Virus record (IMG/VR): IMGVR_UViG_2537561716_000012 | Strand: one strand, 5' to 3' | DNA length: 4,325 nucleotides | From: a virus | Lineage: Duplodnaviria > Heunggongvirae > Uroviricota > Caudoviricetes | Shown: positions 1-3,000 of the stretch, one piece after another | How positions within the stretch are numbered: the stretch's first letter is position 1 | How the letters are laid out: every line of letters starts with the position of its first letter | Program-made: the position numbers

Positions 1-3000
1 AAGGTTTTTACGTCAGATTCTTTTGGGATTGGCTTGCGTTTATTTCTGGAGCGTTTCGTTGGAAGGTATTTGCAGTTTTCGCAGATGATGTCGGTGATAC
101 TTCGTCGCTATCGCCTCATGCCGCCCTCCTGACGCCCTGCCCGATCGCCATCAATGCCGCTTTGGATACGGTAGTAAACATCCGTCGAGGACTGATGAAC
201 GGTCGCCAAATCAGCAACATTGAGCCTTTGCTGTTTCCCTTCTTCTCCAGCCCTGTCGATGGTTCGATAAAATTAATCCGTCCATCAGTGATGATGCGAA
301 CTTCGTCAACACTCTCCAGAGCCTTGCTGAACCATCCGACAGACATATCCTCTGGCACAAGCATCACTACCGTCTGTCGCTGTTGTATGCACTGCTCAGC
401 GGCTTTTTCCACCCACGGCCTGATATTGCTGTACGGTGGGTTATTCCAGATTGCACCGTGGCTTATCCACTCAGAATTTAGCGCGTCGTCAGCCTCAGTT
501 AGCCAGTGAGCGCACAGAGCGTTTTTGTCGCTCGCAGCTGAATCCAGCCAGAATCCAAACTCAATATCCAGCGCATCAAAAAGCCAGAGCGGCGTTTGCC
601 AGCAGTCCTTGTCGTGTGCTGGCGTATTTGATTTGATAGTCATGCAGCCTTCCCTTTTCGTTGTGACCATTCATACTCTCGCCGGGAGTCATCACTCCAC
701 CGCACGTTGCGCTCTGAGCCGAACCAGAACATGATTTCGATAAGCTCAGTCATGCTGGCCTTTCGCATTTTGCTGGTACGCACGCCAAGCATGACAACGC
801 CACCGTCGATACCAGGCGCACTTCTTTGCTCCAGTTTTTTGGTCTTAAGCCACAGGGCAGTGAACAGGTCTTTCCAGTCTTCCGGCGCCAGCCGTTGACC
901 ATGCCATAGCACCTGACGCGAAACATCGTTCAGCATCGGCCACATGCGGTCATTCTGCGCTTTGCTGCGCTTGGGTTCTTTAACGTGGACTTCGTGGGGT
1001 GACTTGTCGTCGATGGGTAGTGAGAGAATGGCGTCTATGGCGTTATTTCTGATTGCTTCGTTGCGAAGCAGAAAGGTTTGCTTCATCTCCTGCTCTCCGG
1101 TTCCATTTTTCAGTAGCCGCAGCAACTGATGGTGCCCATGCCACCCTGGCTTCACAGAGGTCACATTCTGCATAGCCCCACACATCAATATTTATTCCGG
1201 CCTCAACCCACAGACGAGCATTACCGCCGCAAAACGGACATTCTTTTAGCTTTGGCTGGGTTAATGATAGGTCGCTCATGCTCACTCCTTCACTTAAAAT
1301 CCAGACTCCGGATAATTCTGTTGCGCTGAAACTCATTGTTGAGTTTGAACAACCGTCGAAGAACACGGTCACGCGGATAGCGTCGTGCGGCAGGTGAATG
1401 CTCATACAACTCATCAAGCGGCAAACTGGACGATGAACGATACCGATACCAACGCACCAACTCTTCACGAAAATTAGCCCTGACAAGCTCAGCTATCGTA
1501 CTCATTTCTTAAAACCTCCTCAAACGCATTCTGACGCATTTTTCATTCTCGCTGCTTATCGGCATACCTTGCACGTGCTTACCTCACCACAGAGCGATTG
1601 TGATGCCTTAAAAGCGATTTATTGAAGTGATATTTGCTTAATCGAAATTATTTTCTTTGATTCCTGCGGCCCTGATGGCTTTCATTACTGCAATTACCGT
1701 TTTGTCACGCCCATCCTCATAACCCATCGCATAAGCACCTTCTTCACCATCTTTCCAAAGGTCGTCATTCGATTCGGGCCAGTCGATATCCAGTTCAATA
1801 GCAGAGCGCGATGCCTGCCATATCACCCAGGCAAACTCTTTTAATTCATCGTCTCCCGTGAACTGGCTTTTGTCTTTTGACCACCAGTTTTCAAACTGTC
1901 GGTAGCTATCGTTCACTTCCCTCTCCCCCAAATAAAAAGGCCTGCGATTACCAGCAGGCCTTTTATTGACTCAGTGATGTAGATGGTCATACGTCAGCCC
2001 CTTGTGCATATCGTCTGCCACGCGCAGCAGGTGCATTTGATGCTGTGCAAATCTGTCTGGCTTCATCCTGGTCACATGCAACAAAGTGTCCGTTACAGAA
2101 CCGCTGGTAAACTGTACCAAGCGAGCCAAAACGGTTTTTCGTCACGATGATTTCAGCAAATGGCGCGGCGCTACTGTTCTCATCATATACCGCTTCCCGA
2201 TAGAGCATGATGATTGAGTCTGCGTCCTGTTCAATGCTTCCTGAATCACGCAAATCTGCGTTTGTCGGGCGTTTGTTTGGTCGCTTCTCAACATCGCGCG
2301 AAAGCTGACTCAGGGAGATAACCGGTGTTTTCAGGTCTTTCGCCATCGCCTTCAGGCTTCCGGAGATGTGAGCAATTGCGAGGTCGTTGCGGTCTGCTTT
2401 CGGCTTCTCAATCAGGCCAAGATAATCCGCCATGATGAGTGACAGGTTTGGATTTTCCTGCTTATGCCGTTCTGCGATTGAGCGTATTTCTTCGACCGAT
2501 AACCGCGAAGCATCGACTACCCATACATCCAAATCTGCAAGCTGACTCATGCCGTTAGCAACACGTGCCCAGCCCTCGTCATCCATCGATGCAGGATTTC
2601 GCAGTACGCTAACCGACATCCTCCCGGCGTTGGCAATGCTTCGCTCTGCAATCTGCAATGCGCTCATTTCCATTGAGAAAATCAATACCCCGCGCCGGAC
2701 GTCAGAACCAGGAATAACGCGGCTTGCCACACCTTCGGCAATCTTCAGCGCCAGTTCGGTTTTCCCCATACCAGGACGAGCGGCGATAATCACCAGGTCT
2801 TCTGCGTTCATCCCTCCAGTGATAGCGTCAAGCTCTTCGATTCCGGTCTTCAGGGTATCTGACTCTTCTCCGTTCCTCAGACGCCTGTCAAGCGTGTCAG
2901 TGTAGTCAGTGATGATTTCCCCTAACCGTACAGGTTTAACCTCGTCACGGGGCTTTCTGATGGCTGAAAGACGCTTTACAAGTTCATCCATCGCCTGACT

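What the first reader, a model, noticed from the sequence alone, without database searches (positions are those of the whole stretch)
1290..1505. Arg-rich 71-aa protein adjacent to the acidic protein: possible nucleic-acid binder or partner
14 of 71 residues are Arg, with clusters (RWYRYR, RRYPRDRVLRR, RNRIIR). It has a strong RBS, and its stop sits inside the RBS region of the downstream Lar-like gene, implying co-translation. An acidic/basic small-protein pair in an accessory slot could be a functional pair (mimic plus nucleic-acid binder, or toxin/antitoxin-like), but this is only an inference from composition and adjacency.
Basis: inference. Interest (0 to 1): 0.5.

Follow-up and report, generated by a model that had tools for sequence, protein, structure and literature searches.

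The report
Conserved small basic prophage protein (DUF7301)
The 71-codon arginine-rich ORF is a real, already catalogued gene (family DUF7301, function unknown) of lambda-like prophages; it often sits next to the acidic gene but also occurs widely without it, so it is an ordinary accessory gene and not half of an obligate pair.

Summary
Window 1290-1505 (- strand) encodes a 71-aa protein with 14 Arg (pI 10.8). A GAGGAGG ribosome-binding site lies 9 nt before its ATG, and its TGA stop overlaps the ribosome-binding site of the Lar-like gene.

The protein is already catalogued: Pfam DUF7301 (91 bits against a cut-off of 27), PHROG 1785, RefSeq WP_000103678.1. It is in 543 of 5,426 complete E. coli genomes and 183 phage records. 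Homologues at 25-49% identity occur in Salmonella, Klebsiella, Cronobacter, Erwinia, Ewingella and Rosenbergiella prophages.

It is coding. dN/dS is 0.3-0.45, the core motif R-D-[RK]-V-[LM] is spelled with many different codons, and Shine-Dalgarno-like motifs precede most family starts.

It nearly always lies in the nin region, between the replication helicase gene and ninB. AlphaFold predicts a helical hairpin (pLDDT 87) with no informative structural match. The basic character is conserved across the family (median pI 10.8).

The acidic gene is a frequent neighbour but not an obligate one. Each gene occurs without the other, order and spacing vary, and acidic alleles swap while DUF7301 stays constant. 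A toxin-antitoxin reading has no support.

My best guess for function is binding of nucleic acid, or another polyanion, through the basic hairpin tip. This is an inference, not a result. Interest is low to moderate.

The parts
1290..1505 (-). DUF7301 coding sequence (71 aa, pI 10.8), identical to RefSeq WP_000103678.1
   Evidence: ORF list; Pfam PF23975 3.8e-26, 91.4 bits, cut-off 27; phrog_1785 2e-33; PGAP annotation; dN/dS 0.3-0.45
1515..1521 (-). Shine-Dalgarno GAGGAGG, 9 nt upstream of the ATG
   Evidence: Read from the sequence. GGAGG-N-TTTAAGAA-ATG is conserved where the upstream gene differs
1285..1292 (-). Stop codon TGA (1292-1290) overlapping the Shine-Dalgarno GAAGGAG (1291-1285) of the Lar-like gene
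   Evidence: Read from the sequence. Tight packing is typical of nin regions (PMC8022706)
1365..1379 (-). Codons for the family core R45-D46-R47-V48-L49. The surrounding YPRDRVLRRL stretch (1350-1379) is invariant in Escherichia alleles and is an intragenic mosaic joint
   Evidence: Alignments; many synonymous codons across lineages; fusion breakpoints at codon 43/44
1506..1637 (-). 132-nt spacer between the acidic gene and DUF7301. It travels with the acidic cassette and contains the direct repeat AATGCGT-CAG-AATGCGT just before the Shine-Dalgarno
   Evidence: Upstream alignment of both architectures; no promoter-like or terminator-like site on the coding strand
1638..1916 (-). Acidic neighbour (92 aa, GTG start, pI 4.3), phrog_343 / PF26207 Phage_phiTE_015. 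A frequent but dispensable neighbour
1043..1279 (-). Lar-family restriction-alleviation gene (78 aa), immediately downstream
   Evidence: Pfam PF14354 and TIGR03655. Downstream of 83 of 176 DUF7301 copies sampled; a Lar-like gene also lies 70 nt downstream in Rosenbergiella locus L102
1930..1960 (-). tR2-type intrinsic terminator (stem 1939-1960, U-tract 1930-1938), inside the so-called ninA ORF. It marks the start of the nin region that contains DUF7301
   Evidence: Annotated as tR2 in phage Nil2 and as a terminator in phage L; sequence

Best explanation
The ORF is a genuine, independently inherited accessory gene of the lambdoid 'nin' region, family DUF7301. By its position it would be transcribed with the delayed-early rightward operon, downstream of the replication genes and the tR2 terminator, so expression should depend on N-type antitermination. 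It is translated from its own strong ribosome-binding site and is packed tightly against whichever gene follows. The product is a roughly 70-residue helical hairpin. Its conserved surface is the hairpin tip and the start of the second long helix (consensus RY-x-x-SSSLP-x-x-E-[RK]...RP...Y-[RP]-R-D-[RK]-V-[LM]), surrounded by many Lys and Arg. My proposed mechanism is that it binds a polyanion through this basic tip, most likely DNA or RNA, as a non-essential helper of the DNA transactions encoded around it (recombination by NinB, Rap and RusA; methylation; restriction alleviation). Shown here: gene reality, family membership, genomic position, predicted fold, conserved basic charge and independence from any single neighbour. 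Inferred only: nucleic-acid binding and the biological role. Confidence is about 0.95 for the 'real, independent, catalogued gene' part; the 0.4 given below is for the binding mechanism.
For: Family membership; all 36 diverse members hit DUF7301. Coding: dN/dS 0.3-0.45 with synonymous sites saturated between genera; the RDRVL core uses CGT/CGA/AGA/CGC, GTT/GTG/GTA and so on; Shine-Dalgarno-like motifs precede most of the 13 lineage starts examined, weak or absent in one or two. Prevalence: 183 phage records and 543 of 5,426 E. coli genomes. Distribution: Escherichia, Cronobacter, Erwinia, Rahnella, Ewingella and Rosenbergiella; Salmonella phage L/ST64T orf69, Klebsiella and Erwinia phages. Position: between the helicase gene and ninB in all nin-type loci, whatever the helicase type. 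Fold: AlphaFold pLDDT 87.4, helices 3-25, 30-35 and 44-69. Charge: median net +8 and pI 10.8 in 41 representatives; positions 31-51 are 40-98% Lys/Arg. Neighbourhood is rich in DNA-handling genes: NinB, Dam, Lar, RdgC, NinG, NinH, RusA.
Confidence: 0.4

Rival explanations
1. DUF7301 modulates a host protein (host takeover or anti-defence). The basic hairpin tip would dock onto an acidic surface of a protein conserved across Enterobacterales, for example a restriction or defence component, or an acidic tail such as that of SSB. It would act alongside the neighbouring Lar, Dam and possibly the acidic gene as part of a counter-defence islet.
For: The conserved patch stays constant while phage neighbours and helicase type vary, which suits a conserved host target. 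Neighbours include Lar-family restriction alleviation and a Dam methyltransferase, and Lar lies close downstream again in the distant Rosenbergiella locus L102. The gene also occupies a different accessory slot, just upstream of terS, in L103 and L104, as morons do. Some prophages carry two diverged paralogues, as expected if specificities differ.
Against: No similarity to any PADLOC model (defence-system proteins only), and no Pfam or NCBIfam family other than DUF7301 itself. Guilt by association is weak in a region where genes of many functions are packed together. No target can be named.
Confidence: 0.28
2. DUF7301 and the acidic PF26207 protein form a functional basic/acidic complex, for example a nucleic-acid binder kept in check by, or delivered with, an acidic DNA-mimic-like partner.
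For: The genes are adjacent in three diverged settings and in either order: acidic then DUF7301 in Stx-type prophages (59 of 79 window-type copies with sufficient flanks); DUF7301 then acidic with overlapping signals in 31 of 31 P22-like loci and 6 of 6 L011-type paralogues; and a Klebsiella DUF7301 directly after an acidic 252-aa protein that carries a 33-residue similar segment (52% identity, E 3e-8). The acidic family also occurs in the same nin region, though not adjacent, in Cronobacter L086, Ewingella L088 and L101. The charges are complementary (pI 10.8 against 4.3).
Against: Each gene occurs alone. For DUF7301: Stx2a phages 51 against 3, 19 window-type loci with at least 1 kb of flank, Dewey, L095-L100, L085, L102, L107, L103 and L104. 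For the acidic gene: UPF_BP1, S135, Emek and mEp213. There is no co-variation: DUF7301 stays 90-100% identical while the adjacent acidic allele falls to 32-47%. Order, spacing (132-nt gap, direct overlap, or two genes between) and the acidic N-terminus all vary. Conserved slot order in lambdoid mosaics explains the adjacency without any interaction. The samples are heavily redundant by descent.
Confidence: 0.17
3. A toxin-antitoxin-like module: a basic toxin neutralised by the acidic neighbour, or the reverse.
For: Two small adjacent genes of opposite charge. Prophages do carry such modules.
Against: Co-occurrence is not obligate and gene order is not fixed. A 132-nt gap separates the genes, with no promoter-like site on the coding strand, and they sit inside a long operon. 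There are no hits to toxin, antitoxin or defence models. The gene is present in up to four copies per genome without a matching number of partners.
Confidence: 0.04
4. The ORF is not a gene. The region is instead the N-terminal extension of a longer Lar-like protein, as annotated in RefSeq 933W (119 aa) and Nil2 ORF31.
For: An overlapping frame is open in the window (1043-1486, 147 aa) and is annotated in NC_000924 and AJ413274.
Against: That frame has a stop six codons before the Lar ATG in L091, while the DUF7301 frame stays intact. The Lar domain starts at residue 10 of the 78-aa form, which has its own Shine-Dalgarno. DUF7301 homologues exist where no Lar gene follows. Protein-level conservation is in the DUF7301 frame.
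Confidence: 0.02

Closest known systems
Pfam DUF7301 (PF23975) / PHROG phrog_1785 / RefSeq WP_000103678.1
   Same: It is a full-length member: 91.4 bits against a cut-off of 27, residues 1-64 matching profile positions 1-64 of 65, and an identical protein is already annotated in RefSeq.
   Different: Nothing differs. The family has no assigned function and no paper in the searchable library mentions it.
Lambda NinH (PF06322), a small nin-region protein reported as a Fis-like DNA-binding and bending protein (from my own knowledge of the literature, not checked here)
   Same: Small, encoded in the non-essential nin region of the same operon, surrounded by recombination genes. A precedent for a small nin-region protein that binds DNA.
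   Different: No sequence similarity. NinH is a separate gene present in the same loci. Its reported fold is a helix-turn-helix, not a two-helix hairpin.
Rop/Rom of ColE1 (a 63-aa helical hairpin that dimerises and binds RNA kissing complexes; from my own knowledge)
   Same: Similar size and predicted helix-loop-helix hairpin topology, so it shows that such a fold can bind nucleic acid.
Arginine-rich-motif peptides such as the N-terminus of lambda N (binds boxB RNA; from my own knowledge)
   Same: An Arg-rich helical segment (residues 41-51) in a lambdoid early protein.
   Different: No match to the N-peptide family. Here the Arg-rich segment is embedded in a folded hairpin, and its conserved residues include Asp, Val and Leu, which suggests a structural role for part of the motif.
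Type II toxin-antitoxin pairs
   Same: Two small adjacent genes of opposite charge in a prophage.
   Different: Not obligately paired, variable order and spacing, no promoter of its own detected, and no homology to known toxin or antitoxin families.

Membership tests
Pfam DUF7301 (PF23975) | Score above the curated gathering threshold over the whole model | tested here: met
   91.4 bits against 27, E 3.8e-26, residues 1-64 on profile positions 1-64 of 65. All 36 diverse relatives also match.
PHROG phrog_1785 | Full-length match to the family profile | tested here: met
   E 2e-33, residues 1-70 on profile positions 1-70 of 71. The L011 paralogue also matches at 5e-35.
DUF7301 (features derived here) | Core motifs RY-x-x-S-S-S-L-P-x-x-E and Y-[RP]-R-D-[RK]-V-[LM] | tested here: met
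   Window residues 21-32 (RYRSSSSLPLDE) and 43-49 (YPRDRVL); column frequencies are.
DUF7301 (features derived here) | Location in the lambdoid nin region between the replication helicase gene and ninB | tested here: met
   Window order is DnaB-like, tR2, acidic, DUF7301, Lar, NinB. The same slot is used in other genera. The exceptions, L103 and L104, lie upstream of terS.
Type II toxin-antitoxin module | Obligate co-occurrence of the two genes in a fixed order | tested here: not met
   Each gene is found without the other, and the order is reversed or interrupted in other lineages.
Type II toxin-antitoxin module | Own autoregulated promoter and operator upstream of a tightly coupled pair | tested here: not met
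   A 132-nt gap separates the genes. No promoter-like site lies on the coding strand in 1000-2100. The genes are embedded in the rightward early operon.
Type II toxin-antitoxin module | Homology of either partner to a known toxin or antitoxin family | tested here: not met
   No such hit in Pfam, NCBIfam or PADLOC.
Type II toxin-antitoxin module | Growth arrest by one gene that is rescued by the other | not testable with these tools
   Requires an induction experiment.
Lar-family protein (long form, as annotated in 933W RefSeq) | A conserved open frame continuous with the Lar domain | tested here: not met
   There is a stop codon in that frame in L091. The Lar domain starts at residue 10 of the 78-aa form.
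Known nucleic-acid-binding folds (HTH, RHH, Rop-like and others) | Significant sequence or structure match to a characterised binder | tested here: not met
Known nucleic-acid-binding folds (HTH, RHH, Rop-like and others) | Direct binding to DNA or RNA | not testable with these tools
   Requires gel-shift or anisotropy assays.

The most novel reading that the evidence does not exclude
DUF7301 and the hypervariable acidic PF26207 protein are a two-part module. A constant basic hairpin would bind DNA or RNA, or a host nuclease, and would be partnered through the acidic protein's constant ends with a rapidly diversifying acidic 'specificity' protein. Together they would form a previously undescribed counter-defence or exclusion system in the nin region of lambdoid phages.
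Probability: 0.12. Interest if true: 0.6.

Novelty: already known. Interest (0 to 1): 0.25.

Why it matters
On its own it matters little. It is one more small accessory gene of unknown function in the dispensable nin region of Shiga-toxin and other lambdoid prophages, and it is already filed as DUF7301.

Three results are practically useful. First, some reference phage records, including RefSeq 933W, omit this gene and annotate an overlapping long 'Lar-like' ORF that comparative data do not support. Second, the family is wider than the first search suggested: it spans seven genera of Enterobacterales and occupies a second genomic slot next to the terminase gene. Third, it has a sharply defined, conserved basic hairpin tip that gives a concrete target for mutagenesis.

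If the gene proves to bind DNA or RNA, or to work with the diversifying acidic neighbour, it would add a component to the poorly understood nin-region toolkit of phages that carry Shiga toxin.

Tried and rejected
**Searches for a known relative**
- Structure: Foldseek against BFVD and PDB gave nothing, and the afdb50 library was unavailable.
- Sequence: a PDB profile search gave only a chance hit at E 1.6.
- Sequence: NCBIfam and PADLOC gave no hit, and no second Pfam family recurs among 36 members.

**Other elements in the region**
- An Rfam scan of the window found only a sub-threshold STnc390 hit on the tR2 hairpin.
- The promoter and terminator scan of 1000-2100 found nothing on the coding strand.

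**Literature**
- Searches for DUF7301, PF23975, phrog_1785, PF26207 and WP_000103678 gave zero papers.
- The supplement of an EHEC transcriptome/proteome paper skips this locus.

**Collection scans**
- The genome-contig scan (one genome per species) found no confirmed relative with Escherichia-type patterns.
- The alignment of distant members was too divergent for a pattern scan.

**Other analyses**
- Polymorphism among near-identical alleles was too sparse to be informative (4 synonymous, 3 non-synonymous). I replaced it with pairwise dN/dS on diverged alleles.
- I considered whether the Cronobacter and Ewingella neighbours (172-180 aa and 132 aa) are relatives of the acidic protein. The alignment shows no credible similarity.
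- I considered that the invariant YPRDRVLRRL stretch is a DNA-level site. I rejected this because the core is encoded with many synonymous codons across lineages.
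Full report
**Setting**

The window is a piece of a lambdoid (Shiga-toxin-phage type) prophage early-right operon, read on the minus strand. The gene order is:
- replication O gene (3360-4034), truncated by an IS1203/IS629 element that starts at 4036;
- DnaB-like helicase (1987-3363);
- a tR2-type terminator (hairpin 1939-1960);
- an acidic 92-aa gene (1638-1916);
- the 71-aa ORF in question (1290-1505);
- a 78-aa Lar-family gene (1043-1279);
- NinB (640-1083);
- a Dam-type methyltransferase (116-643).

The DNA is 99-100% identical to many Stx phages and O157:H7 prophages.

**Observation**

- The ORF is 71 codons with 14 Arg, pI 10.8; at a 5.5% Arg background that many Arg has probability 2.8e-5.
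- GAGGAGG sits 9 nt before the ATG.
- The TGA stop overlaps the GAAGGAG ribosome-binding site of the Lar-like gene.
- The acidic gene (pI 4.3) is upstream, but 132 nt away.

**Is it a gene?**

Yes. Five lines of evidence agree.
- *Family match:* it matches Pfam DUF7301 at 91.4 bits against a cut-off of 27, and phrog_1785 at 2e-33. The identical protein is RefSeq WP_000103678.1, 'DUF7301 family protein'.
- *Prevalence:* the allele occurs in 183 phage records and in 543 of 5,426 complete E. coli genomes, with up to four copies per genome.
- *Wider family:* an exhaustive profile search found 45 representative clusters. A second search placed members in Cronobacter, Erwinia, Rahnella, Ewingella and Rosenbergiella. 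tblastn added Salmonella phages L, ST64T (orf69) and BTP1, plus Klebsiella and Erwinia phages.
- *Selection:* pairwise dN/dS between diverged alleles is 0.3-0.45, and synonymous sites are saturated between genera while the motifs persist. The core R-D-[RK]-V-[LM] is written with many different codons, so the constraint acts on the protein and not on a DNA site.
- *Translation signal:* Shine-Dalgarno-like motifs precede most of the 13 lineage starts examined; one or two are weak or absent.

The competing annotation is a 119-147-aa 'long Lar' ORF overlapping this frame, as in RefSeq 933W and Nil2 ORF31. It fails on two counts. That frame carries a stop in L091 while both DUF7301 and the 78-aa Lar stay intact. 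DUF7301 also exists where no Lar gene follows.

**Anatomy of the protein**

With a 36-sequence alignment, AlphaFold gives pLDDT 87.4. The model is a helical hairpin with helices at 3-25, 30-35 and 44-69 and an extended connector at 36-43.

Across 41 representatives below 70% identity:
- The conserved positions are T3, L7, D11, E14, R21, Y22, S26, S27, L28, E32, P38, Y43, R45, D46, R47, V48, L49, R51 and L52.
- Positions 31-51 are 40-98% Lys/Arg.
- Median net charge is +8 and median pI is 10.8.

Conservation and charge therefore concentrate at the hairpin tip and the start of the last helix, while the far ends of both helices vary. No structural or sequence relative of known function was found.

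**Genomic context**

In every nin-type locus the gene lies between the replication helicase or loader gene and ninB. This holds whether that replication gene is lambda-P type, DnaB type, primase-helicase or DnaC type. In architectures that lack the acidic gene, DUF7301 is the first real gene after the tR2 hairpin, and homology between the two architectures begins only about 20 nt before the ATG.

Two distant members sit somewhere else entirely: immediately upstream of the small and large terminase genes.

The immediate neighbours of the 176 DUF7301 copies sampled were as follows:

| Upstream | Downstream | Copies |
|---|---|---|
| acidic | Lar | 59 |
| other/unknown | acidic | 37 |
| other/unknown | Lar | 22 |
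| locus end | Lar | 2 |
| other/unknown | NinB | 8 |
| acidic | NinB | 2 |
| acidic | other/unknown | 3 |
| other/unknown | terS | 2 |
| other/unknown | other/unknown | 40 |
| other/unknown | locus end | 1 |

Tight packing against the next gene is the general rule in nin regions (PMC8022706). It does not mark a specific partnership with Lar.

**The pair hypothesis**

*Evidence for a pair:*
- In Stx-type prophages the acidic gene precedes DUF7301 in 59 of the 79 window-type copies with sufficient flanks.
- In P22-like prophages DUF7301 (orf69 type) is followed by the acidic family in 31 of 31 loci.
- Some E. coli prophages carry a second, diverged DUF7301 paralogue that also precedes the acidic gene.
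- In Klebsiella the upstream neighbour is a 252-aa acidic protein with a 33-residue segment similar to the acidic gene (E 3e-8).

*Evidence against a pair:*
- Each gene occurs without the other.
  - 51 Stx2a phages have DUF7301 but only 3 have the acidic gene.
  - Dewey, L095-L100, L085, L102, L107, L103 and L104 have DUF7301 without an acidic gene.
  - UPF_BP1, S135, Emek and mEp213 have the acidic gene without DUF7301.
- Order and spacing vary between lineages.
- In the P22-like set DUF7301 stays 90-100% identical, while the adjacent acidic gene keeps only its first and last roughly 10 residues and swaps its middle (32-70% identity, at least 12 alleles). There is therefore no co-variation.

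Conserved slot order in mosaic lambdoid genomes, together with heavy sampling of close relatives, explains the adjacency. A complex formed through the acidic protein's constant termini cannot be excluded. I give the pair reading 0.17 and the toxin-antitoxin reading 0.04.

**Mechanism**

What is shown is a real, mobile, nin-region gene that encodes a conserved basic helical hairpin. What I infer is that it binds a polyanion through the basic tip, most likely nucleic acid. The inference rests on two things: the conserved positive charge at non-conserved positions, and a neighbourhood dominated by DNA-handling genes (NinB, Rap/NinG, RusA, NinH, RdgC, Dam, Lar). My confidence in this is 0.4.

The main rival, at 0.28, is binding to a conserved acidic host protein as a host-takeover or counter-defence factor. 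Part of the conserved Arg/Asp/Glu set may only stabilise the hairpin.

**Comparison and novelty**

The gene is a member of an already curated family of unknown function, so as an object it is already known. It resembles other small nin-region proteins such as NinH, and helical-hairpin binders such as Rop, only in general character. No membership in any characterised family is supported.

**Verdict**

An obligate pair or a toxin-antitoxin module is not supported. Interest is 0.25.

Noticed in passing
window 4036-4325 (+) and 3360-4034 (-): The left end of IS1203/IS629 (TGAACCGCCCC...) abuts the replication O gene, which lacks about 146 nt at its 5' end. Compared with strain 28RC1, 500 bp are missing (5' end of O, orf53 and the 3' part of cII). 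This looks like an IS-adjacent deletion that should cripple this prophage's replication module.
   Followed up: partly
window 1043-1486 (-); NC_000924.1 15997-16356: There is an annotation conflict. RefSeq 933W and Nil2 (ORF31) annotate a long 'Lar-like' ORF overlapping DUF7301, and 933W omits DUF7301 altogether. In L091 the long frame has a stop six codons before the true Lar ATG.
   Followed up: yes
window 1638-1916 (-); L105:2716-2964 and L141-L170 around 4207-4510: In P22-like prophages the acidic PF26207/phrog_343 gene keeps constant ends (MDESRKQFE... and ...IRAAGIKVKE) but has a hypervariable middle. At least 12 alleles at 32-70% identity sit next to a nearly invariant DUF7301. This points to diversifying selection or cassette exchange and deserves its own study.
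   Followed up: partly
L011:2313-2534 and L011:3001-3216 (also L012, L027, L028, L048, L054): Some E. coli prophages carry two DUF7301 paralogues (45% identical) flanking a 118-aa form of the acidic gene. The window's 92-aa acidic gene has a different first 29 residues, so one form may derive from the other by recombination.
   Followed up: partly
window about 1350-1379 (-); P0024 (L175:4001-4318), P0153, P0031: There is an intragenic mosaic joint at the YPRDRVLRRL core. All four combinations of two N-terminal and two C-terminal half-types exist, and the C-terminal type goes with the downstream gene (Lar or NinB-like). Three independent fusion or deletion products break at codon 43/44, one of them a natural nin deletion that joins DUF7301 to ybcO-rusA.
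   Followed up: partly
L103:4001-4219 and L104:4001-4237: Distant DUF7301 members (E 1e-18 to 1e-20 to the family profile) lie immediately upstream of the small (GP3_package) and large terminase genes, not in a nin region. This is a second genomic slot for the family.
   Followed up: no
window 1930-1990 (-): The short 'ninA' ORF annotated in Nil2, phage L and others coincides with the tR2 terminator hairpin, so it is probably not a protein-coding gene. A sub-threshold Rfam hit to STnc390 (22 bits, cut-off 50) falls on the same hairpin.
   Followed up: no
window 1043-1083 (-); L105:2967-3263; L172:2267-2455; L174:1860-2231: Unrelated genes that precede ninB share the C-terminal tail '...ASQRSNQK'. 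These are Lar in the window, orf98 of phage L, orf71 of S135, mEp213_059 and some acidic alleles. Each reads into the same conserved DNA overlapping the 5' end of ninB, which is apparently a recombination joint.
   Followed up: no
window 1506-1637 (-): The 132-nt spacer between the acidic gene and DUF7301 is conserved wherever the acidic cassette precedes DUF7301. It contains an imperfect palindrome (TCACAATCGCTCTGTGGTGA) and a direct repeat AATGCGT-CAG-AATGCGT just before the Shine-Dalgarno. Its function is unknown.
   Followed up: no
L102:4352-4570: In a Rosenbergiella prophage the DUF7301 homologue (32% identical) is followed, after a 69-nt gap, by a Lar-like gene (phrog_599, 6e-7) and preceded by RdgC. 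The DUF7301-then-Lar order therefore recurs at great evolutionary distance.
   Followed up: no
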